A stretch of 64,000 nucleotides of DNA, taken from a virus (taxonomy: Duplodnaviria; Caudoviricetes). The notes beneath the pieces are model-generated. The model was not told the origin of the DNA and ran no database searches. It saw nothing but the letters and a program-made list of their open reading frames with translations. A program made the translations under genes and the position numbers. The stretch covers positions 32,001-96,000 of IMG/VR virus record IMGVR_UViG_2851870198_000001; one strand, given 5' to 3'. Below, piece by piece: positions 3,001 through 64,000 of this stretch (positions are counted from its first letter, which is position 1; each line of letters starts with the position of its first letter).

Positions 3001-6000
3001 TCGTCGGCGTTGTCCTCCAACGACGGGTAGCCGCGGAACTCATCGTCGGGGTTGAACGCGAGGCCGTTGTCGTACAGAGCGATGCCCCGGGCCAGCCGTT
3101 CCGGCACGACGCTCAGGTCGGGCTCCCCTCGCTCCTTGTCCCGCAGTACGAGGTTGGCGATGGCCGCCTCACGGGTGGAGAAGTTGATCCCTCGGCTGTC
3201 CCACGGCTCCTGACTCCACCAGACCTCTTCCGGGTTGTCGGCGTTGACGAAACGGTGCGGTGCGAACAGACGCCCGATGAAACGGCCGTTGCGCCACACC
3301 TGCTCTCCCTGGTCGGCCTGGAGTGCAGGGGTGGGTGCGGTGCCTTCCTCGGCGAGCTCCCGCATCCGCTCCGGCGACCCGAAGAGCACACGCTCACCCT
3401 CCGCGCTGATGATCTCCTTCTCGCCCGTCGCGTACTGCTCCCGCATCTCGTCCGTGCTGGGCACGCGCGGGATGTCGCCCTGCGGCGCCGCCGGACCCGC
3501 GCCCACGCCATCCGTACGGCCGCCCGTGCTGGTGCCGTCAGGGGCGTTCGCCGTGGCGCGGGAACGCGCCACGTAGTCCTCGGTCGGCATGTCGACGTCG
3601 TCGGCCCGGGCCAGGAGACTGCCGGTGCCGTCGGCAGGCACCTGGACGGTCATCTCGTGGCGCGGCGTCACCCGCTGGGCGTCGGGGTTGTCGTCCCACG
3701 GAGTGGAGCCAAGGCGGAGTTGCCAGACCCGTTCCTTCTGCCCGTCACGGGTGCGGGTGACCCGTTTCGGCGTACCACGCAGGTAGCCGCTGTACTCGGT
3801 GTCGTTGATGTCCCACGACGGCCGCTTGCCCATGACGCGGACGACGTCGCCCGGACGCAGGTCCCGGATCGGCGTCGCGGTGCCCGCAGAACCGGACTCC
3901 TCAAGCGCCTGGAGAGCCTTCCACGCGGCCCGCGCCTTGCTGATCTGGTGGTGTGAGGCCCGCGGGTTGTCCGGCCGGATGGTGTTCAGCAGGTTCCGCA
4001 GGTTCGCCGCGTCCGCGCCGGGCTTCCAGAACTCGTCACGGTTGGGCTTGTAGCGGCCCGTCACCCAGTCGAGTTCGTCGATCGCCTGCGAGATGTCGTC
4101 GGCGACGTTCCCGCTGGCCGGACGCCCCGCGCGCAGGTCTTCCAGCAGCCCGCTGAGCGCCCGCCAACGCTCGCTCTCCTCCGGGGTGAGGTCCAGCCGG
4201 CCGGGCGCCTCCTTCGGCATGCTCACCACGCTGCCAATGAACGGTGTCGATGGCGCGAGCCGGTCGACGGGCAGCTCCCCGTGCTCCTGCGCCAGGCGCA
4301 CGAGCTCAGCGACAGCCCCCTCCCTCTCCTGGAAGTCCGGGTGAGGGTCCCGGGTGAACTTGCTGTAGGGCGCCCATGAGCCGCCGGTCGTGTGGATGGC
4401 GTGGCCGATCAGACGGCCGCCCATCCACACCTCGTCATAGCTTCCGGCCGGGCCGAGGTCGTCCACGGCGACCGCCTGGCGGGCGAGGTCACGCATCCGG
4501 TCGGCCGAGCCGAACCGGCGCGCGGCCGCCGCACGGTCGAGAGTCCGGCCAGCGTCGTTGTCCTGGCCGCTGCCGTCACCGCTGCGCGAGGCACCACCGT
4601 CCGGACCGTCGTCGGGCGCGTCGCTGTCGATGTCGGGCATGTGCGGGACGCGCGGCCGCGGCAGGTCCGGGCCGCCGCCTGCACCCTCGGGGCGGGGCCG
4701 GTCGTTGCCGGAGCGGTTCCGCCGCCTGCGACGGTCGTCGTCCTCCCGACCCTCCTGGTCGCCGTCCCCCTGGCGGCCACTGTCCTGGCCACTGTCGTCG
4801 TCGCCAGGACGCTGCGGGGCGTCGCCGCCGTTCGGAGGCTCACCACCCCCGCCGCTGCCGCCTTCGCGTCCCTCACGCTCCCGCTTCGGCGCCCGCTGGT
4901 CGTCGTTGTCCTCCCGCCGGCCGTCGCGACGGTCCCGCTCGTCCGTCTGCGCCGGACGGTCATCGTCCTGCTCACCGCGGCCCGTCGCAGCGTCGTGAGC
5001 GGCCACCAACCCGGCCTTGGCGAGCTCCTGGCCGTGCCACGTCCGCCGCTGACCGTCACTGGTCTCGGAGTGGTACAGCAAGACCTTCTCGCGGTCGTTC
5101 TCGATCCGGCCGATCTCTACACCGTCAACGCTGACAGTCCACTCCGCCTCACGGTCGAACTTGTCCTTCGCGATCGGGGTGAGCTCGGCGCGGGCCGCGA
5201 GAGCACTGACACGGTCAGGGCCACCGAGCTCGTACGTCTCGTCATCGACCGGCACCTCCCACTGGGTGAAGGTGTCCGTACGAGCCCGGCTCCGCGCCTT
5301 CTTGCGAACCGCCGGCTCCGGGTCCTCCACGATCACAACCCACTGATCAGGCTTCACATGGGTCTGCCCATGGTCGGAGTCCAGCGTCACCGACCGGACG
5401 TCGCCCTCACGGCCTCCGCGGTGCGTGTGAATGACGTAAGACGGCGGCTCAAGGCCGTTGAACGTGTCGTCGCCCGGCTGGCGGGACTGCGCTGCGTGGA
5501 AGATGTCTCCCTGGCGAAGGTCAGACCCCCGCGCCCACCGCATGCCCTTGGGCAGCTCCGCCTCGCCGACCTTGACCACACCGGATCCGGCCTGGGCGTC
5601 AGCGAAGGGAGCCGGCGGCGCGCCGAGCGTCGTCCGTCGGCCGTTGTCCCAGTACTGCCCGTGCCAGCGTCCGCTGTCTTCCCGCCTGGCCCATCCGGCG
5701 AACGCCGACCAGTAGGCGTCAGCGTCCGACTTGGCGGCGTGAAGGGGCCGCATGGCCTCGGGGTACGCGCCGCGCACGCCGAGCGCCACCTGGTCGGGAT
5801 TGTCACCGCCGACCACGTTGACGATGAAGTCCTCTGCCTGCTGCTCGGAAAGACCGTGCTCCGCCGCTCCAGCGCGGGCCCGCGCGATCTGCTCACGTAC
5901 GGCCGTCCGGATCTTCCCGGTGCGGTCCTTGAACATCTCCCCGGCCAGCTCGCGGGCCTTCTCCCGGCCCTTCTCGGTGGCGATGTGGTCGACCAGCACC

Positions 6001-26450: not shown

Positions 26451-27232
26451 GAGTCCTCCAGGAGTGCGGTGAAGGTGGGAGTTTCCAGCCAGCCCCAGGC
26501 GCCTTTGGCGCCGTCGGCGATGGCTCGGTTGACGTTCAGGCCGGGGTTCGGCCGGTGGGCGAGTCCGGCGGTGAGGGCGGCGACGTAGGCCGTCGAGAGG
26601 GAGTGGCGGAGGTTCAGCACGCTGACGCGTTCACGGCCTTCGGGCTCGCCGCCCTCGATCCAACGACGGTGCCAGGCAGGCATGGACGCCTTGCGTAGCT
26701 CGGGCTGGGTGACGTCCAGGCCGAGCTCCGTGCAGACGTCCACCAGGCGGCGGGAGGCGCCGGTGAGCAGGTGGCCGGCGTCGTACCGGGTGTCCACGTA
26801 GTGGCTGGCGTTCGGGTCGGCGTCGCGGCGCTGCCGCCACTGCTCGCGGGCCTGTTGCAGGGCGGGGACGGCGTCCGTGGGGGCGTTGGCCTCCAGCACG
26901 GACAAGTCCGCGCAGAACTGGTGCCCGGTGATGATGGTGGCCGTGTCCGCGGCCGCGGTGACCGTGTCCGCGGCGTGCCGGATCATGGCGTCCATCTCCC
27001 CGGGCTCCTCGACGTAGACACTGGTCCACTCGTACGGCACGTCTGTGAGGTCGGCCGTGCCACCGGCGGGCAGGTCGAGCCAGGCGACGCTGTAGCAGAA
27101 GGGCCGCTGACCGTTCTTGATCCTGTAGTTCTTCGTCCACTCGACATCGACGGACGCGATGCGCACCGTCCCGGAGCGCAACGGCGGGGGCGCCAAGGGG
27201 CGGGCGCTGGTCAAGCTGCTCTTGATGATCAT
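26372..27232 (-). CDS. DnaQ/DEDD 3'-5' exonuclease-fold protein
   Basis: ExoI-like ASVDVEW, ExoII-like ITGHQFCADL, YVDT, RRLVDVCTELG; atypical ExoIII (NLRH). Confidence 0.6.
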   Translation of the reverse strand: MIIKSSLTSARPLAPPPLRSGTVRIASVDVEWTKNYRIKNGQRPFCYSVAWLDLPAGGTADLTDVPYEWTSVYVEEPGEMDAMIRHAADTVTAAADTATIITGHQFCADLSVLEANAPTDAVPALQQAREQWRQRRDADPNASHYVDTRYDAGHLLTGASRRLVDVCTELGLDVTQPELRKASMPAWHRRWIEGGEPEGRERVSVLNLRHSLSTAYVAALTAGLAHRPNPGLNVNRAIADGAKGAWGWLETPTFTALLEDSCPSATAALSPSKAPKRPARRRSSTR

Positions 27233-27290
27233 GGGGTGTTCCTGCCGTAGGACGGGGCCGCGCGCCCGGTGCGCGCGGCCCCGTCGGACG

Positions 27291-28079
27291 CTACTCGTTG
27301 CGCGTGGCCGCCACGCCGCCCAGGAGAGAAGGCGCTGCCTCCCACGCGGCTTCGGACAGCGCGTCGAAGATGCTCAGCGGTCCCTCCCAGTGGAGCCGGC
27401 CCGTGTGCTTGCCCCCGAGGAGCGCCGTGGTGAGCGCTGAGGACAGGACGCTTCCGGCCAGGGCGTCCGGGGAGAACGCCGCGGCCCGTTCCTCCGCGAG
27501 GGCCTCACAGGCTTCCTGCGCGCTGGCCTGCTGCTGCTCGCCGGCGAACGACTTGAGCGGGTTCAGGCCGTGCGCGCTGGCGGTGTCGCTGATGAGTCCG
27601 GCCGGGCCCAGGTCGTGGCTGGTGTCCACACACAGGGCGATTCCCCGCTCCCGGGTGGTGCGGTCCTTCCAGGCGTCGGCGATGGCGGTCACGCCCGGGT
27701 AGCGCGGCTCGCCTTCGGCGCGGGGGAGCTGCTGGAGGACGTGCAGGTCGTCGGCACCGTTGTGCCAGGCGAGGACCTGCGACTTGCGGCGGGCCTGGAC
27801 GAGGAGGACGTCGAGCTGCCGGACGATCGCCGCCGTCTCGCCCATGGCCTGCGGTAAGAGGACCCGGTACCCGAAGTTCATGAGCGGGGCGGAGACGGGA
27901 ACGGACTGGGTGCGGTGGATCTTCATGAGCACCGCGGCGGCGCCCATGAGGATCGGTTCATCCCCGGCCTCACCCCACAGCAGAGAGATACCGGTCAGCC
28001 ACGTCGCCGGTTTCTGTACGGGCCGGGTGACCGACCCGAACGGCGTTTCGGGCCAGCCGAGGTTGGTGCGTTCCAGCAC
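27291..28079 (-). CDS. Hypothetical protein, probable degenerate DnaQ-fold paralog
   Basis: VLAWHNGADDL and CVDTSHDL parallel the neighbouring gene; no DxE motif is evident. Confidence 0.55.
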   Translation of the reverse strand: MLERTNLGWPETPFGSVTRPVQKPATWLTGISLLWGEAGDEPILMGAAAVLMKIHRTQSVPVSAPLMNFGYRVLLPQAMGETAAIVRQLDVLLVQARRKSQVLAWHNGADDLHVLQQLPRAEGEPRYPGVTAIADAWKDRTTRERGIALCVDTSHDLGPAGLISDTASAHGLNPLKSFAGEQQQASAQEACEALAEERAAAFSPDALAGSVLSSALTTALLGGKHTGRLHWEGPLSIFDALSEAAWEAAPSLLGGVAATRNE

Positions 28080-28080
28080 G

Positions 28081-29058
28081 TCACACCCCCTGGGTGACGG
28101 CGTGGATTGAGCGGCCGACGTACTTGGAGATGTGGTTCTCCTTGAAGCGGTACCGCTCCCAGATGGCGCTGATGGGCTCCTCCAGGACGTTGCCCAGGTT
28201 CTCCCACAGGTCCGGCGCGTCGTAGACCGGCCACGCGCGGGCGATGCCGTTCGGCTCCACGACGATCATGTGCCCCTCGTTCTCGGGGGTCCACGCCGTC
28301 AGCCGCAGTGCCGGGGACCACTGCATCTCAGCGCGCTGCTCCTTGAGCCGCGCGAACGTGGTCTCGGCTTCCTCGGTGGTGATGAACTCGTGGTCGGCGA
28401 GGTTCAGCGCGTTGCCCTTGCGCAGGGGCAGGATCAGCTTGACCTTCGTGGCGTCCAGGACGTCGGCGATCTGCACGGTGTACGGCAGCACCGACAGGGT
28501 GGAGCGGTAGACCACGGCCGACAAGGCGAGGGGGATGCCGGCCTCTTGCAGCACCCGCACGCCGGCCATCGTCTTGTCGTAGTCGCCACGGACGCGTTTG
28601 AAAGCGGCGCGGGGTCCCTCGAACCCGACATTGGCGTATGCGATCTTGTCGGCGATGTTCTTCGCGTGGTCGAGGGCGTGTGTGGCGTTCGTGGGCACGG
28701 CCACGATGTGGTGCCCGTGGAAGATGTCCACGACCTCGCTGAAGTCTTTCCGCATCAGCGGCTCACCGCCGGACAGGAAGACCCGGCTGACGCCGGAGAG
28801 GTTCTGGCGGATGGTGTCGAGCTGGTCGAGGGTGGGGTCCGGCATCTGCAGGGTTTCGGAGCAGAACGAGCAGTCGAAGTCACAGCGCTTGGTGACCTGC
28901 ACGATCACTGACAGCGGCGCGGTGAGCGAGTCCGCGATGGCCTTGATGCTGAGGTCTGCCGGGGCGTCGAAGTGCTGGCCGTTGAAGGCGTATCCGACGC
29001 CTCCGCCGAGTTCCTGCCGGTTCTGCCTGGGGATATCGGGCATTCCGAGGTCGGTCAC
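28081..29058 (-). CDS. Radical SAM protein (325 aa) with Cys-less SPASM/twitch-like tail
   Basis: CDFDCSFC, LSGGEPL, VPTN; GGAGG RBS before GTG 29058. Confidence 0.93.
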   Translation of the reverse strand: MTDLGMPDIPRQNRQELGGGVGYAFNGQHFDAPADLSIKAIADSLTAPLSVIVQVTKRCDFDCSFCSETLQMPDPTLDQLDTIRQNLSGVSRVFLSGGEPLMRKDFSEVVDIFHGHHIVAVPTNATHALDHAKNIADKIAYANVGFEGPRAAFKRVRGDYDKTMAGVRVLQEAGIPLALSAVVYRSTLSVLPYTVQIADVLDATKVKLILPLRKGNALNLADHEFITTEEAETTFARLKEQRAEMQWSPALRLTAWTPENEGHMIVVEPNGIARAWPVYDAPDLWENLGNVLEEPISAIWERYRFKENHISKYVGRSIHAVTQGV

Positions 29059-35711: not shown

Positions 35712-35804
35712 CCACACCCACACCCGATGCGGGAGGGCGCGGCGTACGAGCGAACGCCGCGCCCTCCCCGCTCCCGGAAGGAACCAGACATGACTCATCA
35801 CTGC

Positions 35805-35834
35805 GCGACCGAAGCCCGGGCGCGGGGGCACGCT
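35805..35834 (+). promoter_or_regulatory. Class A promoter
   Basis: GCGAC-N19-CACGCT. Confidence 0.5.
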
Positions 35835-35868
35835 GCACGCCCCTGCGGGACCGGTCGGGAGGCGTGAC

Positions 35869-37357: not shown

Positions 37358-37583
37358 TCTGGTGGCATAACAGAAGAGCCGGGCCCTTGTGGAGGGCTTG
37401 GCAGGACAACGCCACGGCGCACGAGCGAGCGCCAGGCGAACGCTCCCGAACCCACCAGGAGGGCTCTCATGCTCTGCGCCCGTTCCCTCTTCCCCGGCGT
37501 CTCCGTCCTGACGTGACGTGACGCGGCCCCGACCTGGGGTTTCGCCCGTCATCCACGTCACGTCACTTCCCGGGGAGACTGCT

Positions 37584-61246: not shown

Positions 61247-61530
61247 TGGGCGGCCTCCTGCGGTTGGTCCCGCAGGACGTTCATGGCGGTGATCACGGCG
61301 CGCGCCACGGTGCCGATGAACTCGCCGCGCTGCCCTCCGGTGCGCTCGGCGAACCGGTCATTGGCCAGGGACATGAACCGGTCGGTGGGGTCGCTGCCGC
61401 CGGTGATGAGCACGGCCAGTTGGTCGGGGGAGGCCTGGTTCAGGTCGAGGGCCATTTCCACGATCACGGGGTGCGCGGTGAGGGCGCGTACGGACGCGTC
61501 GAGCGTGGGGCTGACAGCGGTGACGCTCAT
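61243..61530 (-). CDS. Hypothetical protein
   Basis: GGAG RBS before ATG 61530. Confidence 0.6.
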   Translation of the reverse strand: MSVTAVSPTLDASVRALTAHPVIVEMALDLNQASPDQLAVLITGGSDPTDRFMSLANDRFAERTGGQRGEFIGTVARAVITAMNVLRDQPQEAAQ

Positions 61531-61633
61531 CGGGGGTGCTCCCATCGGCGGGGTGGGCGGGCGATGGGGGCGCAGCATGCGGGGCGGGACCGCTTGTGTC
61601 GCGCGGTCCCGCCCCGTCGGTGCTGTGTGCTGG

Positions 61634-62167
61634 TCAGGCGGGCCGGAAGTGGGCGCGGCGGCCGCCGTGCGGGGAGGTGAGGGTGAACGTCCCGCCGGTG
61701 CCGGGGGTGATGCGGGCGCCGTTGCGGATCGACTTCTGTGCGCTGGCCATGGCGTGCCCCCATGACAGGACGGTGCGCCATGCGGGGGTGTCGGTGCCGT
61801 CCACGTCGATGGCGTAGTTGGGTGCCTCGGCGCGGGGGCGGACGGTGGCGCGCAGCACGTCGCGCTTGTCCTCGGTGCCGAGTTCGGCGGTGGCGCGTTC
61901 GGCGGGCGTCATGCCGTTGAGGCGGGCGGCGCGCGCGAGTTCGGCGAGGGCCTCCGCGACGCCGTGGCCGAGGGCGGTCAGGGCGTAGCGGGCGTGGCGG
62001 TTGCGGGGGTCGCTGGTGGGGCAGATGAGCCGCTTGTCGTACAGGGCGGCGAGGGTGGAGCGGCGGACGTCCACGGGCACCCGCCCGTGGTCGGCGGCGG
62101 CCGCGGTGACGGTCTGCTGCTGCCGGTCGGACATGTCGCGGATGATGCGGCGGAGGTAGGCGTTCAC
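61634..62167 (-). CDS. Hypothetical protein (possible wHTH N-terminus)
   Basis: GAAGG RBS; STLAALYDKRLI...YALTALG. Confidence 0.65.
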   Translation of the reverse strand: MNAYLRRIIRDMSDRQQQTVTAAAADHGRVPVDVRRSTLAALYDKRLICPTSDPRNRHARYALTALGHGVAEALAELARAARLNGMTPAERATAELGTEDKRDVLRATVRPRAEAPNYAIDVDGTDTPAWRTVLSWGHAMASAQKSIRNGARITPGTGGTFTLTSPHGGRRAHFRPA

Positions 62168-62186
62168 GGGCGTGCCCTTCGGGTGT

Positions 62187-62270
62187 GGGAGCGGGCCGGC
62201 CGTCTCGCTCGTGACGGCCGGAGGCTGATGCGGGGCGCACCCCCGGGCCGGCGTGCGGCCCGGGGGTGCG
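62187..62270 (-). ncRNA. Structured leader repeat copy 1 (two hairpins + possible pseudoknot)
   Basis: Hairpin with loop CACGC, hairpin with loop ACGAGCGA, then CCGCTCCC. Confidence 0.55.
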
Positions 62271-62278
62271 GGGAGGGG

Positions 62279-62941
62279 TCAGAAGCCGTCGCCGTAGCGG
62301 CTGGAGGGGTCGATCCAGCCGGGGAGCAGCCGGTACGGCTGGGCCAGGCGGCGGGCCTCGAACAGCGCTTCGTCGCTGCGGATGACCACGGCGTCGCGGC
62401 GGGCGGCCTCCACGGCGGCACGGGCCTGCTCTTCGGTCTCGTAGTGGAAGGTGGGGAGGACGAGGGATCCCTTGTCCGCGGAGCCGGACGGGATGATGTG
62501 GACGCTGCGGCCGTCGCGGTGTGCGGCGCGGCACGCCTTGTTGGGGCCGGTGCAGCGGCGGACGAAATCGGGGAAGCGCTGCGGGCCGTGCACGACGGGG
62601 GCCGCGGTGACGCGGGCGGCGATGTACTGGGCGACGGCGTCGGCGGCCGCGATGGCGTCGGCGCGGGCGTCGAGGGCGGATTCCCCGTCACCGCTGCAGA
62701 ACAGCGGCTCGCCGTTCAGGTCGCCGTTCGCGTCGCGGGTGAAGATGCTCCACCCGGTGTGAGCGTCCACGGCGTGACGGACGGAGAATTCCCGGTCGGC
62801 GATCTCCAGCGTGCCGTGCCCCTCCACGGGGACGATCAGGCACTCACCCCACTGGCCGGAGTCGAAGCGGGTGCCGGTGACGGCGCGGGCGGACAGGTGG
62901 GCGAGGAGCAGCGAGTCGGCGGAGAGGGTGACGGTGCGCAT
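62279..62941 (-). CDS. Hypothetical protein
   Basis: GAAGG RBS before ATG 62941. Confidence 0.7.
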   Translation of the reverse strand: MRTVTLSADSLLLAHLSARAVTGTRFDSGQWGECLIVPVEGHGTLEIADREFSVRHAVDAHTGWSIFTRDANGDLNGEPLFCSGDGESALDARADAIAAADAVAQYIAARVTAAPVVHGPQRFPDFVRRCTGPNKACRAAHRDGRSVHIIPSGSADKGSLVLPTFHYETEEQARAAVEAARRDAVVIRSDEALFEARRLAQPYRLLPGWIDPSSRYGDGF

Positions 62942-62964
62942 GGTGGGCGCCCTTCTGGGTCGGT

Positions 62965-63037
62965 GGGAGCGGTGTAGGCGCGGGGAGTCTCGCTCGTGAC
63001 TCCCCGTTGGGTCCCCGGGCCGGCGTGCGGCCCGGGG
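62965..63037 (-). ncRNA. Structured leader repeat copy 2
   Basis: Same loops, compensatory stem changes. Confidence 0.55.
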
Positions 63038-63051
63038 CGGGGTGAAGCGGG

Positions 63052-63459
63052 TCAGGCGGCGTCGCGGATCGCGTCGCGGAGCATGGCGGGCCGGTTGGCC
63101 AGCGGGGTGAACTCGTAGTCGAGGAGCAGCACCTGGGCGGCCTCCGCGGCCTTGTCGGTGTCCGCGTCCCGGGCGATGGTGCCGAGGGGCGTGCCGTCGG
63201 TGTCGATGACGGTCACGGTCCACGCGTCGCGCTCGGGGGTGAAGTGCAGGATCGGGGCGGTGAGGGGCGCGTCCGGGTCGAGGGGGACCAGGTAGTCGGT
63301 GGGCCCGTAGGGGCACGGGGTGATGTCGCGGGCGTTGAGGGCCGCGCGCAGCAGGTCCCGAGCGGTGGGCGGCTCGTTCTCGCTGGCGGTGAGGGCGGCC
63401 AGCGCTTCCGGGAGCGTGAGGACCATGCTCGCGGGGAGGCTGCTGAGGTAGTCGCGCAT
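63052..63459 (-). CDS. Hypothetical protein
   Basis: GGAAGG RBS before ATG 63459. Confidence 0.65.
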   Translation of the reverse strand: MRDYLSSLPASMVLTLPEALAALTASENEPPTARDLLRAALNARDITPCPYGPTDYLVPLDPDAPLTAPILHFTPERDAWTVTVIDTDGTPLGTIARDADTDKAAEAAQVLLLDYEFTPLANRPAMLRDAIRDAA

Positions 63460-63484
63460 GGGGTGCGCCTTCCTGGTTGTTGTC

Positions 63485-63554
63485 GGGAGCGGCGTCCGCT
63501 GGCTCGTCTCGCTCGTGACGGCCTGCAGGCGTGCGGTGGGCCAGCGTGCGGCCC
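63485..63554 (-). ncRNA. Structured leader repeat copy 3
   Basis: Same loops; a G-U pair supports the minus strand. Confidence 0.55.
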
Positions 63555-63560
63555 GGGTGG

Positions 63561-63737
63561 TCAGATGCCGATGCGGCGGGCGATCTCCGCCACGATGACG
63601 ACCGGCGGGTCGGTGGGGTCGATTCCGGCGGCCCTGAGCTCTTCGGCGGTCTCGGCGGCGGCGTCGGCGTGGCAGTCGGCGCAGATGTCGCCGTCCAAGT
63701 CGTCGCGTTCTTCCTCGCAGATGAGGCACTCGGCCAT
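63561..63737 (-). CDS. Small acidic Zn-finger protein
   Basis: CLIC...CADC; GAGGGG RBS. Confidence 0.6.
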   Translation of the reverse strand: MAECLICEEERDDLDGDICADCHADAAAETAEELRAAGIDPTDPPVVIVAEIARRIGI

Positions 63738-63754
63738 CCCCAACCCCTCTCGTA

Positions 63755-63788
63755 GCTTCCTACGAATAGAACTGTACACCACATCAAA
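63755..63788 (-). promoter_or_regulatory. Class C promoter/operator, copy 2
   Basis: TTTGATGTGGTGTACAGTTCT. Confidence 0.65.
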
Positions 63789-63821
63789 GAGTGCTGCCAG
63801 CTCTCAGCCGAAAAGCGCAGA

Positions 63822-64000
63822 TCAACGCACATGCGCGCGGGCCTGCTCCAGCCACCAGGCGCGCCGCTTTGCCGGTATCGGCCACCGGTGCACACCGAAC
63901 TCAGCCCGCCCGTCCCCCGGCGCCGGGTACCGGTGCACCGTGAGCGTTCCCCCGGGGAACACCTCGCACGGCTCGGAGATCTCGAACACCAGCCGGGCCC
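63822..64000 (-). CDS. 3' end of a hypothetical gene entering from outside the window
   Basis: Open minus frame ...RRAWWLEQARAHVR* ending at TGA 63822. Confidence 0.4.
   Translation of the reverse strand, partial: ARLVFEISEPCEVFPGGTLTVHRYPAPGDGRAEFGVHRWPIPAKRRAWWLEQARAHVR

What the first reader, a model, noticed from the sequence alone, without database searches (positions are those of the whole stretch)
62187..63554. Thrice-repeated covarying double-hairpin leader with a potential pseudoknot before consecutive early genes
Seen on the minus strand in three successive intergenic gaps: hairpin 1 GGGCCG-CACGC-YGGCCC, then hairpin 2 with invariant GTC-ACGAGCGA-GAC, then CCGCTCCC, then a GAAGG RBS. 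The outer stem of hairpin 2 changes with compensation (CCGGCC/GGCCGG vs CGGGGA/TCCCCG vs a bulged GGCC stem). Loop GAGCG is complementary to the downstream CGCTC, which would form an H-type pseudoknot. Inference: an undescribed cis-regulatory RNA, processing/stabilising element or ssDNA promoter, which might also act as a gene-cassette shuffling site.
Basis: partly seen in the sequence, partly recalled or inferred. Interest (0 to 1): 0.75.

Follow-up and report, generated by a model that had tools for sequence, protein, structure and literature searches.

The report
Repeated phage mRNA leader hairpin
A short RNA hairpin with a fixed eight-letter loop sits in front of a dozen non-structural genes of a large Streptomyces phage-plasmid and its relatives, and looks like an undescribed signal that controls how these messages are kept or translated.

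Summary
Three successive minus-strand gaps (window 62165-63554) each carry a GC-rich hairpin after the stop codon (HP1), a second hairpin with loop ACGAGCGA (HP2), CGCTCCC, a C/A-rich spacer, an SD and a start.

HP2 is one of at least 12 such hairpins in this 125.9-kb Streptomyces phage-plasmid-like record. I aligned 49 distinct copies from eight related records. Stems covary strongly: 81.6% of cells pair against 52% in shuffles, and all 9 pairs show double changes. The loop stays fixed. Phage Gilgamesh and a related plasmid carry a sister motif with loop AGAGCA. Rfam has no match.

Many copies start about 5 nt after a conserved -10-like box, so they probably lie at the 5' end of the transcript. 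Others are operon-internal.

The pseudoknot is not supported:
- One relative has G7 changed to A in all 7 of its eight-base-loop copies, with CGCTC unchanged.
- The sister clade lacks CGCTC.
- Several copies leave only 0-5 nt to span a 9-15-bp helix.

Best reading: a new 5'-UTR RNA leader whose loop is read by an unidentified trans-acting factor. HP1 is a local terminator-like or 3'-protecting hairpin. The mechanism is inferred, not shown.

The parts
63771..63787 (-). Promoter-like box TTGATGTGG-TG-TACAGT (the -10-like TACAGT is at 63776-63771), at the head of the operon. This promoter has no HP2 leader.
   Evidence: One search found the exact box at 6 intergenic sites in the genome (one of them a variant). 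Searches show the related box GGACnnGGTGTACAGTT in relatives. The E. coli-type consensus scan found 0 promoters, so the promoter reading is an inference from conservation.
63561..63737 (-). First ORF of the operon: 58 aa, acidic, with CxxC...CxxC.
   Evidence: No Pfam or PHROG family.
63538..63554 (-). HP1 copy 1: GGGCCG-CACGC-TGGCCC, a 6-bp stem with a G-U pair, starting 6 nt after the stop codon.
63496..63528 (-). HP2 copy 1: a bulged stem around the loop ACGAGCGA.
   Evidence: (R1, 45.3 bits).
63457..63491 (-). Copy 1 tail: CGCTCCC, a C/A-rich spacer, SD GGAAGG and the ATG of gene A.
63013..63037 (-). HP1 copy 2: a 10-bp stem, CCCCGGGCCG/CGGCCCGGGG.
62981..63006 (-). HP2 copy 2: CGGGGAGTC-ACGAGCGA-GACTCCCCG, a 9-bp stem.
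   Evidence: (52.8 bits).
62939..62971 (-). Copy 2 tail: CGCTCCC, spacer, SD GAAGGG and the ATG of gene B.
62237..62269 (-). HP1 copy 3: a stem of 14-15 bp.
62196..62221 (-). HP2 copy 3: CCGGCCGTC-ACGAGCGA-GACGGCCGG, a 9-bp stem. Only 2 nt separate it from CGCTCCC.
   Evidence: (54.6 bits).
62165..62193 (-). Copy 3 tail: CGCTCCC, spacer, SD GAAGGG and the GTG of gene C.
61581..61615 (-). A strong GC-rich hairpin (13-bp arms) that begins 18 nt after the gene C stop codon. It is the likely end of the operon.
   Evidence: Read directly. It has no T-run, and one search found 0 terminator-like sites.
35735..35775 (+). A further HP2-type leader with an 11-bp or longer stem, loop ACGAGCGA and CGCTCCC. 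It precedes a 25-aa mini-ORF, which is followed by a 189-aa ORF.
   Evidence: (27 bits).
37412..37447 (+). A further HP2-type leader before a 15-aa mini-ORF. The mini-ORF's stop abuts the GTG of the FtsK/SpoIIIE-like gene.
   Evidence: (30.6 bits).

Best explanation
HP2 is one copy of a previously undescribed structured RNA leader, used many times by a family of roughly 125-137-kb Streptomyces phages and phage-plasmids.

Anatomy (shown):
- A hairpin of 4-15 bp whose stem sequence is free to vary, while its 8-nt loop ACGAGCGA is fixed. One relative has ACGAGCAA, and a sister clade that includes phage Gilgamesh has AGAGCA.
- In this clade the motif CGCUC(C) follows 11-18 nt after the loop.
- A G-poor, C/A-rich spacer comes next, then a strong SD and the start codon.
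- Every copy points the same way as the gene behind it.
- All copies lie in the non-structural arm of the genome.

Inferred mechanism:
- Where a copy follows the conserved -10-like box, the helix starts about 5 nt after that box. The transcript would therefore begin with the hairpin, which would shield the mRNA from 5'-end-dependent RNases.
- In operon-internal copies the hairpin would do the same after a cut upstream.
- The invariant loop is the docking site for a trans-acting factor, most likely a phage-encoded RNA-binding protein. That factor would set the stability or translation of the whole gene set together.
- The unstructured C/A spacer keeps the SD open.

It is a variable, GC-rich, U-tract-less hairpin right after the upstream stop codon. 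I read it as a partial terminator or a 3'-exonuclease barrier for the upstream cistron.

The confidence given is for the whole statement. That HP2 is a functional folded leader element I hold at about 0.85. The specific mechanism (a protected 5' end plus a loop-reading factor) I hold at about 0.4.
For: Copy number and specificity:
- 12 of the 14 occurrences of ACGAGCGA in the whole record (both strands) lie in hairpins of 4 bp or more. All 12 are intergenic and just upstream of a start.
- Covariance model R1, built from 7 copies, found further copies in this record and in six related virus records. There were 58 matches, of which 41 were distinct.
- Model R2 found 7 more in plasmid NZ_CP107821.1.

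Covariation, measured on an ungapped, loop-anchored alignment of 49 distinct copies that was not fitted to a model:
- 81.6% of 441 cells pair, against 52.1 +/- 1.9% in shuffles (0 of 500 reached the observed value) and 33-42% with the partner slid by 1-3 columns.
- All 9 pairs show changes on both sides.
- The covariation score is 0.647 against 0.182 in shuffles.
- The 49 copies have 21 different inner 4-bp stems.
- RNAalifold predicts the same hairpin independently.

Strand:
- G-U pairs outnumber A-C mismatches 23 to 11 on the sense strand.

Loop conservation:
- Columns A15-C20 are invariant in all 49 copies.
- Loop counts are 39 ACGAGCGA, 9 ACGAGCAA and 1 ACGAGCGG.
- The loop type is uniform within a genome. 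This record has 12 of 12 hairpins with G at position 7. NZ_CP107821.1 has 7 of 7 with A at position 7.
- Gilgamesh has 10 hairpins and NZ_CP107934.1 has 13, all with loop AGAGCA.

Link to translation starts:
- 48 of 49 copies have an SD-preceded start downstream.
- In 43 of 49 the start lies 12-30 nt after CGCTC.

Position at the 5' end:
- Perfect 11-12-bp helices start 5 nt after the box GTGTACAGTT (and the sequences).

Conservation by gene family:
- Orthologous genes keep the leader across 2-7 records.

Genes served:
- An ERF recombinase, the FtsK/SpoIIIE-like gene and a DUF2637-like gene.
Against: - No transcript data exist. No listed sequencing run is RNA, so the 5' ends, any processing, and even RNA as the working molecule are inferred.
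- No RNA-binding protein could be named. The neighbouring ORFs have no Pfam or PHROG family.
- The one ORF that I followed up for a matching presence/absence pattern is a secreted, Cys-rich protein.
- Uniform loops within a genome could also arise by gene conversion among copies.
- A close relative by portal identity (NZ_CP122459.1, 65%) has no detectable counterpart. The element is therefore not essential to the whole family.
- CGCUC(C) is unexplained in this model.
- The consensus scan found no sigma-70-type promoter or U-tract terminator. The promoter and terminator labels rest on conservation and position only.
Confidence: 0.5

Rival explanations
1. A nut-like processive antitermination site. 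The hairpin would play the part of boxB and be bound by an N-like protein. CGCUC(C) would play the part of boxA and recruit NusB/NusE. RNA polymerase could then read through HP1-type hairpins inside the operons.
For: - Many copies lie just downstream of promoter-like boxes.
- Terminator-like hairpins lie inside the operon.
- The loop is invariant while the stem is free, as in boxB.
That comparison is from memory and was not tested here.
Against: - There are 12 or more sites per genome.
- Each site is tied to a start codon 30-45 nt downstream. Nut sites are not tied to starts in this way.
- In the window each site lies after, not before, the hairpin it would have to overcome, and the first promoter has no site.
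- The sister clade has the hairpin but no CGCUC.
- No N-like or Nus-related family was found in the ORFs I scanned.
Confidence: 0.1
2. One reading: an H-type pseudoknot formed by the loop GAGCG pairing with the downstream CGCUC. It would act as a self-contained riboregulator of the adjacent ribosome-binding site.
For: - The 5-nt complementarity is present in 39 of 49 aligned copies, and 4 nt of it in 9 more.
- The distance from loop to CGCUC is constrained to 11-18 nt, and 35 of 49 copies fall at 14-16 nt.
- One long leader keeps both motifs about 95 nt apart.
Against: - There is no covariation, because both partners are fixed.
- NZ_CP107821.1 changed loop G7 to A in all 7 of its eight-base-loop hairpins (an eighth hairpin has the 7-nt loop ATGAGCA) without changing CGCTC.
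- Of the 23 AGAGCA hairpins of the sister clade, only 1 has GCTC downstream, by my reading of the output.
- One hairpin in this genome has no CGCTC within 70 nt.
- In at least 7 of 49 copies a 9-15-bp helix is followed by only 0-5 nt before CGCUC. That linker is too short to cross such a helix unless the helix opens.
Confidence: 0.07
3. An RNA-processing site. A host or phage endoribonuclease would recognise the hairpin or the HP1-HP2 junction and cut polycistronic transcripts into units, each flanked by a 5' hairpin (HP2) and a 3' hairpin (HP1). This would resemble the RNase III sites between T7 early genes, which I recall from memory.
For: - HP1-type hairpins directly precede operon-internal copies in this record (3 cases), in G001, G002 and G006, and in Gilgamesh and NZ_CP107934.1.
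- Each cistron is bracketed by stable hairpins.
Against: - Most copies follow a promoter-like box directly and have no upstream RNA to be cut from.
- The stems are 4-15 bp, shorter than typical RNase III substrates.
- There are no end-mapping data.
Confidence: 0.12
4. A DNA-level element. It could be an operator for a DNA-binding protein, an ssDNA promoter, or a PeSL-like or attC-like recombination cassette boundary whose main role is gene shuffling.
For: - The leaders sit at the junctions of shuffled protein modules. The N-terminal part of gene B and the N-terminal part of gene C are parts of one 318-aa gene in G001. The C-terminal part of gene C is a separate 79-aa gene in G002 with its own HP1+HP2.
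- The upstream module, either a promoter box or HP1, is exchangeable in front of the same gene family.
Against: - Compensatory stem changes with a fixed loop are not what a duplex-DNA operator shows.
- Orientation is strictly with the gene, and the distance to the start is fixed.
- There is a G-U over A-C bias on the sense strand.
- The complete relatives I searched are dsDNA phages with direct terminal repeats.
- Shuffling at conserved leaders can be a by-product of their repetition.
Confidence: 0.08
5. A selfish intergenic repeat (REP- or MITE-like) with no role in expression.
For: It is multi-copy, intergenic and palindromic.
Against: - Orthologous genes keep it across 2-7 records.
- It has a fixed orientation and a fixed distance to the SD and start.
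- The loop is conserved while the stems have diverged completely.
Confidence: 0.03

Closest known systems
[quoted passage not shown] Source: PMC3203893, abstract and passages of the SAS section read. PMC12699233, passages read, says their role still needs experimental verification.
   Same: - Both are actinophage elements.
- SAS has 11-19 copies per genome; this element has 12 or more.
- Both are restricted to the non-structural arm.
- Both are co-oriented with, and just upstream of, translation starts of a subset of genes.
- ESAS adds an inverted repeat upstream of the SAS.
- Orthologous genes keep the element.
- The consensus differs between subclusters.
- The function is unknown.
   Different: - In ESAS the 17-bp arms are conserved in sequence and the spacer varies. 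Here the arms vary with compensation and the loop is fixed, which points to a folded strand read at its loop.
- The 13-bp SAS GGGATAGGAGCCC includes the SD. Here the conserved single-stranded motif (CGCUCC) lies 6-12 nt upstream of the SD and is missing in the sister clade.
- There is no sequence similarity.
Lambda-type nut sites (boxA plus the boxB hairpin). Recalled knowledge, not looked up here.
   Same: - A hairpin with a sequence-specific loop on a free stem, plus a short single-stranded motif beginning CGCUC.
- Located downstream of early promoters in a phage.
   Different: - The order of the two parts is reversed.
- The loop is 8 nt (or 6 nt) rather than a GNRA-like pentaloop.
- There are a dozen copies rather than two.
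- Each copy is tied to a start codon.
- No N-like protein was found.
PeSL promoter-early stem-loop cassettes of T4-type phages (Arbiol et al. 2010). Recalled knowledge, not looked up here.
   Same: - Repeated stem-loop-containing regulatory cassettes lie between small early genes.
- They mark module boundaries and may promote shuffling.
   Different: - A PeSL is a terminator stem-loop followed by a sigma-70 early promoter.
- In the window there is no promoter between HP1 and HP2.
- The conserved part here lies downstream of the promoter, in the transcript.
5'-terminal stabiliser hairpins such as the ompA leader in E. coli and the 5' stabilisers of Bacillus and phage SP82. Recalled knowledge, not looked up here.
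   Same: A stable hairpin at or within a few nucleotides of the mRNA 5' end, followed by an open ribosome-binding site.
   Different: A generic stabiliser needs no fixed loop sequence. Here the loop is the most conserved part.

Membership tests
Any Rfam 15 family | A covariance-model score at or above the family's gathering threshold. | tested here: not met
   One search found 0 matches in the whole window at gathering thresholds. One search (62100-63900, E up to 10) found only Lambda_thermo at 14.3 bits against a threshold of 50, with E = 9.2.
Lambda-type nut site | A boxB hairpin with a GNRA-like pentaloop. | tested here: not met
   The loop is 8 nt (ACGAGCGA or ACGAGCAA), or 6 nt (AGAGCA) in the sister clade. 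A GNRA-like fold of GAGC(R)A is conceivable but was not tested.
Lambda-type nut site | boxA lying 5' of boxB, with few sites per genome that are not tied to start codons. | tested here: not met
   CGCUC lies 3' of the hairpin. There are at least 12 sites in this record. In 43 of 49 copies a start follows CGCTC within 12-30 nt.
Lambda-type nut site | A cognate N-like arginine-rich antiterminator. | tested here: inconclusive
   The Pfam and PHROG scans of the ORFs I chose returned no such family. Not all ORFs were scanned, and N proteins are small and poorly modelled.
Cluster K SAS/ESAS | The 13-bp GGGATAGGAGCCC at the start codon, and 17-bp inverted repeats with conserved arms and a variable spacer. 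| tested here: not met
   The leader sequences show no such 13-mer. The arms vary (21 different inner stems) and the loop is fixed. The definition is taken from PMC3203893.
Cluster K SAS/ESAS | Multi-copy, in the non-structural arm, co-oriented with a subset of starts, and kept by orthologous genes. | tested here: met
   One search gives positions between 67.7 and 124.7 kb, against the capsid and portal genes at 25-56 kb.
H-type pseudoknot riboregulator | A second helix supported by covariation, and loop lengths able to span the helices. | tested here: not met
   Both partners are invariant, so covariation cannot be scored. The G7-to-A change is uncompensated in all 7 eight-base-loop hairpins of one relative. 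The linker is 0-5 nt after a 9-15-bp helix in at least 7 of 49 copies.
Intrinsic terminator (for HP1) | A GC-rich stem followed by a U-tract. | tested here: not met
   The stems are present, but no T-run follows. One search found 0 terminator-like sites in 61400-64000. U-tract-less terminators have been reported for actinophage phiC31. That is recalled and was not checked here.
PeSL cassette | A stem-loop terminator followed directly by a sigma-70 early promoter. | tested here: not met
   Only 3-20 nt separate HP1 from HP2 in the window, and there is no TAnnnT box or consensus promoter there. One relative copy (L221:1501) does have a hairpin, then a promoter-like box, then the leader.
5'-terminal mRNA stabiliser hairpin | A hairpin within a few nucleotides of the mapped 5' end that lengthens mRNA half-life. 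| not testable with these tools
   The only evidence is positional: the helix starts about 5 nt after the -10-like box. No RNA runs were listed.

The most novel reading that the evidence does not exclude
A large family of Streptomyces phage-plasmids runs a regulon-wide RNA operator system. One still-unknown phage factor would read the GAGC-core loop of a dozen leader hairpins and so time the stability or translation of the non-structural genes. Loop and factor would co-evolve between lineages (ACGAGCGA, ACGAGCAA, AGAGCA). The same repeated leader would double as a recombination joint that splits, fuses and reshuffles protein modules into new cistrons.
Probability: 0.3. Interest if true: 0.75.

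Novelty: new variant of a known kind. Interest (0 to 1): 0.6.

Why it matters
If this reading is right, it adds a new, well-supported structured RNA family to phage biology. There are 49 covarying copies, plus a 23-copy sister motif in a cultivable phage. The element is absent from Rfam 15 and from the papers I searched.

It would give actinophage biology a tractable example of a gene-start-associated repeat whose physical form (a folded strand read at its loop) can be argued from sequence. The long-known SAS/ESAS repeats do not allow that.

Streptomyces phage Gilgamesh grows on S. lividans, and several relatives are resident plasmids of sequenced strains. The function can therefore be tested directly.

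A compact hairpin, spacer and SD cassette that serves many unrelated genes in a high-GC host may also be useful as an expression part for Streptomyces engineering.

Tried and rejected
Longer gapped patterns were needed.
- blastn of the 2.5-kb region against the phage collection found no match.
- blastn of a 100-nt promoter-plus-leader query against plasmids found only NZ_CP107821.1.
- Sequencing runs: no RNA holder was listed.
- A scan of genome contigs for a 20-base leader pattern got no answer from the machine three times. The distribution in bacterial genomes was therefore not measured.
- One record behind locus L191 was not held and was not searched.
- The search for a trans factor by presence/absence (present where a leader motif exists, absent from NZ_CP122459.1) gave five ORFs. 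Two of them I judged to be antisense shadow ORFs. The 153-aa one I followed up is a signal-peptide, Cys-rich, Ca-binding-like protein and was rejected. The 189-aa and 190-aa ORFs have no Pfam family. No structure prediction was run.
- A generic count of enriched hairpin loops was swamped by GC-rich palindromes. It recovered only the motifs already known, and nothing in NZ_CP122459.1.
- Genes A and B are not detectably similar to each other (E = 1.4), so tandem gene duplication does not explain the triple repeat.
- Complementarity of the loop or of CGCUCC to the 16S rRNA 3' end was considered from memory only. I saw none and dropped it without a test.
- A resemblance of A-C-GAGC-G-A to the sarcin-ricin loop was likewise considered from memory only, left as an untested lead and dropped.
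- Literature: the motif string together with 'phage' returned only primer coincidences. 'Streptomyces' + 'phage-plasmid', 'actinophage' + 'early promoters' + 'terminators' and 'Gilgamesh' + 'Streptomyces phage' (0 papers) gave nothing on this element.
- Supplements of the two SAS/ESAS papers were not opened.
- Rows dropped before the covariation count: a regex found 63 candidates. 11 had fewer than 3 contiguous stem pairs and were mostly coding matches. Of the remaining 52, I left out L133:251-286 (loop ACGAGCGG, no leader context) and two 36-mers identical to rows I kept (L231:2501, L235). That left 49.
Full report
**What is there**

On the minus strand of window 61500-64000 there is one operon. 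In order it contains:
- a conserved promoter-like box, TTGATGTGG-TG-TACAGT, at 63787-63771;
- a 58-aa ORF;
- three ORFs of 135, 220 and 177 aa (genes A, B and C);
- a strong hairpin at 61615-61581.

Each of the three gaps between these ORFs has the same layout. The stop codon is followed by a GC-rich hairpin (HP1), a short linker and a second hairpin (HP2) with the core GTC-ACGAGCGA-GAC. Then come CGCTCCC, a G-poor spacer, an SD (GGAAGG or GAAGGG) and the start codon.

The exact repeats are far beyond chance. The HP2 14-mer occurs 3 times exactly and 6 times at up to 2 mismatches, against 1.81 expected, and 0 of 100 shuffles reached 6. The HP1 17-mer gives 4 matches against 0.71 expected, and 0 of 100 shuffles reached 4. 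The fourth HP1 match lies inside coding sequence. RNA folding returns both hairpins in all three gaps, with z-scores of -0.70, -3.13 and -3.26.

**What the record is**

The window is bases 32001-96000 of a 125,903-bp virus record with 71% G+C.

It encodes a capsid protein, a portal-MuF fusion and a prohead protease. It also encodes ParB and an FtsK/SpoIIIE protein.

Its portal protein is 78% identical to that of a 132.6-kb circular plasmid of Streptomyces sp. NBC_00536. It is 52-66% identical to those of six other Streptomyces plasmids of 125-132 kb, and 55% identical to that of Streptomyces phage Gilgamesh, which is 129 kb and grows on S. lividans. Two related IMG/VR records are complete and have direct terminal repeats.

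The record is therefore a large Streptomyces phage of the kind that can live as a plasmid.

**HP2 belongs to a multi-copy family**

The whole record holds a fourth exact copy at 105025-105066 on the plus strand. That copy has no HP1. It follows a promoter-like box directly.

I built a covariance model from seven copies. It found diverged copies in this record and in six related virus records. There were 58 matches, of which 41 were distinct. A second model found seven more in the NBC_00536 plasmid.

In this record, 12 of the 14 occurrences of the 8-mer ACGAGCGA (both strands) lie in hairpins of at least 4 bp. All 12 are intergenic. Two of them are in the window, at 35735-35775 and 37412-37447 on the plus strand. 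All 12 lie between 67.7 and 124.7 kb, outside the structural-gene block.

**Covariation**

I aligned 49 distinct copies, ungapped and anchored on the loop, so the alignment was not fitted to any model. The rows I dropped are listed under Tried and rejected.
- 81.6% of 441 cells form standard pairs. Shuffles give 52.1 +/- 1.9% (0 of 500 reached the observed value). Sliding the partner by 1-3 columns gives 33-42%.
- All nine pairs show changes on both sides. The three innermost pairs are never broken.
- The 49 copies have 21 different inner 4-bp stems.
- Even the closing pair covaries: C-G, U-G, G-C, A-U and U-A.
- RNAalifold predicts the same helix independently.
- On the sense strand, G-U pairs outnumber A-C mismatches 23 to 11. 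This modest bias is the expected one for a structure that works in the transcript.

The loop positions A-C-G-A-G-C are invariant in all 49 copies.

**Context**

Every copy points the same way as the gene behind it.
- 48 of 49 have an SD-preceded start downstream.
- In 43 of 49 the start lies 12-30 nt after CGCTC.

Many copies follow a conserved box directly. In this record the box is TTTGATGTGGTGTACnnT, and in relatives it is GGACnnGGTGTACAGTT. When the helix is perfect over 11-12 bp, it begins 5 nt after that box. If TACAGT is the -10 element, the transcript starts at or next to the first paired base. This is inference. A consensus scan tuned to E. coli found no promoter here.

Other copies are operon-internal and have no such box. 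These include the three in the finding, the two others in the window, and the set in front of a conserved 90-aa gene in four relatives.

Promoter box and leader are separable. Two boxes in this record have no leader.

Orthologous genes keep the leader across 2-7 records. Genes served include an ERF-family recombinase, a DUF2637-like protein and the FtsK/SpoIIIE gene. The FtsK/SpoIIIE gene is reached through a 15-aa mini-ORF whose stop abuts its GTG start.

**The sister motif**

Phage Gilgamesh and plasmid NZ_CP107934.1 have no ACGAGCGA hairpins (0 of 4 and 0 of 3 occurrences). Instead they carry 10 and 13 hairpins with the loop AGAGCA on variable stems. Many of these follow the box GGTGTACTGTT, and each is followed by ACCACGAAG..GAGGA and a start. 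In Gilgamesh these starts match annotated genes 125, 126, 129, 131 and others.

The NBC_00536 plasmid has ACGAGCAA in 7 of 7 hairpins and none with ACGAGCGA.

The shared core is GAGC flanked by A. The loop type is uniform within a genome and differs between lineages.

Plasmid NZ_CP122459.1 (portal 65% identical) has no detectable counterpart.

**The pseudoknot**

The complementarity of GAGCG with CGCUC is real, and the spacing is constrained to 11-18 nt. The idea nevertheless fails four tests.
- Both partners are fixed, so there is no covariation to score.
- The G7-to-A change in every eight-base-loop copy of one relative leaves CGCTC untouched.
- The sister clade has the hairpin without any GCUC partner. 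Only 1 of 23 copies has GCTC downstream, by my reading of the output.
- In this genome one hairpin has no CGCTC within 70 nt. Another has it about 95 nt away, behind an inserted structured segment.

There is also a steric problem. In at least 7 of 49 copies a helix of 9-15 bp is followed by only 0-5 nt before CGCUC. Copy 3 of the finding has 9 bp followed by 2 nt. Such a linker cannot cross the helix unless the helix opens.

I therefore treat the hairpin and CGCUC(C) as two separate modules. The hairpin stays near the 5' end, and CGCUC(C) stays near the SD. What CGCUC(C) does is unexplained.

**HP1**

The three window copies share the top of the stem, and stem length ranges from 6 to 15 bp.

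Orthologous or analogous hairpins precede operon-internal leaders in G001 (CCCCGGCCGG-CACT-CCGGCCGGGG), G002, G006, Gilgamesh and NZ_CP107934.1. Their sequences are unrelated to one another.

No U-tract follows, and the consensus scan calls no terminator.

I read HP1 as a generic hairpin at the 3' end of the upstream cistron. It may be a partial terminator of the U-tract-less kind reported for actinophage phiC31, which I recall but did not check. It may instead be a barrier to 3' exonucleases. It is not a partner of HP2 in a defined double-hairpin motif.

**Module shuffling**
- The N-terminal part of gene B matches two tandem segments of a single 318-aa protein in G001.
- The N-terminal part of gene C matches the N-terminus of that same G001 protein.
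- The C-terminal half of gene C is a separate 79-aa gene in G002, with its own HP1+HP2.
- In G001 and G005 the gene C-like gene follows a promoter box plus leader. Here it follows HP1 plus leader.

The leaders therefore sit at joints where modules have been fused, split or re-headed. Genes A and B are not detectably similar to each other.

**How it most likely works**

Shown: a folded element on the sense strand, read at a fixed loop, placed 30-45 nt before starts of non-structural genes, often right behind a conserved promoter-like box.

Inferred: it is a 5'-UTR RNA that gives the message a protected 5' end and an open ribosome-binding site. Its loop would be bound by a trans-acting factor that co-regulates the set.

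A purely structural stabiliser would not need a fixed loop. Uniform loops within genomes that differ between lineages fit a genome-encoded reader, although gene conversion could give the same pattern.

The ORFs I scanned have no informative families. The one candidate from presence/absence profiling that I followed up is a secreted protein.

The rivals are set out with their evidence in their own section. They are nut-like antitermination, a processing site, a DNA-level recombination element or operator, and a selfish repeat.

**Comparison with what is known**

Rfam 15 has nothing like it.

The closest described thing is the SAS/ESAS system of Cluster K mycobacteriophages. It has the same genomic behaviour but the opposite conservation pattern, with conserved arms and a variable spacer. 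Its function is still untested (PMC3203893, passages; PMC12699233, passages).

My four literature searches found nothing on this element or on Gilgamesh. This covers only the held open-access library.

**Verdict**

It is a new structured leader motif with solid comparative support. Its mechanism is open and can be tested in a cultivable phage.

Noticed in passing
window 1-21332 (-), continuing to G000 30248: A single 7,694-aa ORF lies between the portal and capsid regions. The first 5,000 residues contain SNF2-type and UvrD-type helicase domains. It resembles the giant 'polyvalent' proteins of phages and conjugative elements, which I recall from memory. It is conserved at 39-57% identity in the four relatives I compared.
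   Followed up: partly
window 63771-63787 (-) and 48542 (-); G000 100507 (-), 100604 (+), 105004 (+), about 119240 (+): A conserved promoter-like box, TTTGATGTGGTGTACnnT, occurs at six intergenic sites. The related box in relatives is GGACnnGGTGTACAGTT or GGTGTACTGTT. It probably marks a co-regulated promoter class, possibly with an operator. Two of the sites have no HP2 leader.
   Followed up: partly
window 37469-37516 (+) and 35790-35867 (+): Two leaders drive mini-ORFs of 15 and 25 aa. Their stops abut the GTG starts of the FtsK/SpoIIIE-like gene (37518) and of a 189-aa ORF (35869). This suggests translational coupling through an upstream ORF. The NBC_00536 plasmid has a 16-aa ORF in the same place.
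   Followed up: partly
window 61634-62941 (-); L137 (G001); L136 (G002): Genes B and C correspond to modules of one 318-aa gene in a relative. The C-terminal half of gene C is a separate 79-aa gene in another relative. This is gene fission or fusion at the leader cassettes.
   Followed up: partly
W01 (MN234216.1) 9039-118227; W04 (NZ_CP107934.1): A sister leader motif with loop AGAGCA (10 and 13 hairpins) is present in Streptomyces phage Gilgamesh and in an S. zaomyceticus plasmid. In Gilgamesh the annotated start of gene 137 (DNA methylase, 118223) lies upstream of the hairpin, while an SD-preceded ATG follows it. That start may be mis-called.
   Followed up: partly
L129:6653-8710 (-) (G000 26653-28710): The prohead serine protease (Peptidase_S78) is fused to a 2'-5' RNA ligase / LigT-like phosphoesterase domain.
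   Followed up: no
G000 119266 (+) (L131 about 3230-3400): One leader has about 90 nt inserted between the hairpin and CGCUCC. The insert includes a further hairpin (CTCTCACT...AGTGAGAG). The same arrangement recurs in the NBC_00536 plasmid.
   Followed up: no
L130:3575-4036 (-) (G000 99575-100036): This 153-aa ORF has a signal or transmembrane segment, a GDDNRDGxVDEDESGWDC motif and conserved cysteines. It is 85% identical to a Gilgamesh ORF, although most other shared genes are far less similar. Homologues sit on 120-137-kb contigs of many Streptomyces species.
   Followed up: partly
L130:14283-15412 (-) (G000 110283-111412): Two adjacent winged-helix proteins (Crp-like and MarR-like HTH). 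They are shared with NZ_CP107821.1 and NZ_CP122459.1 but not with Gilgamesh, and are candidate repressors.
   Followed up: no
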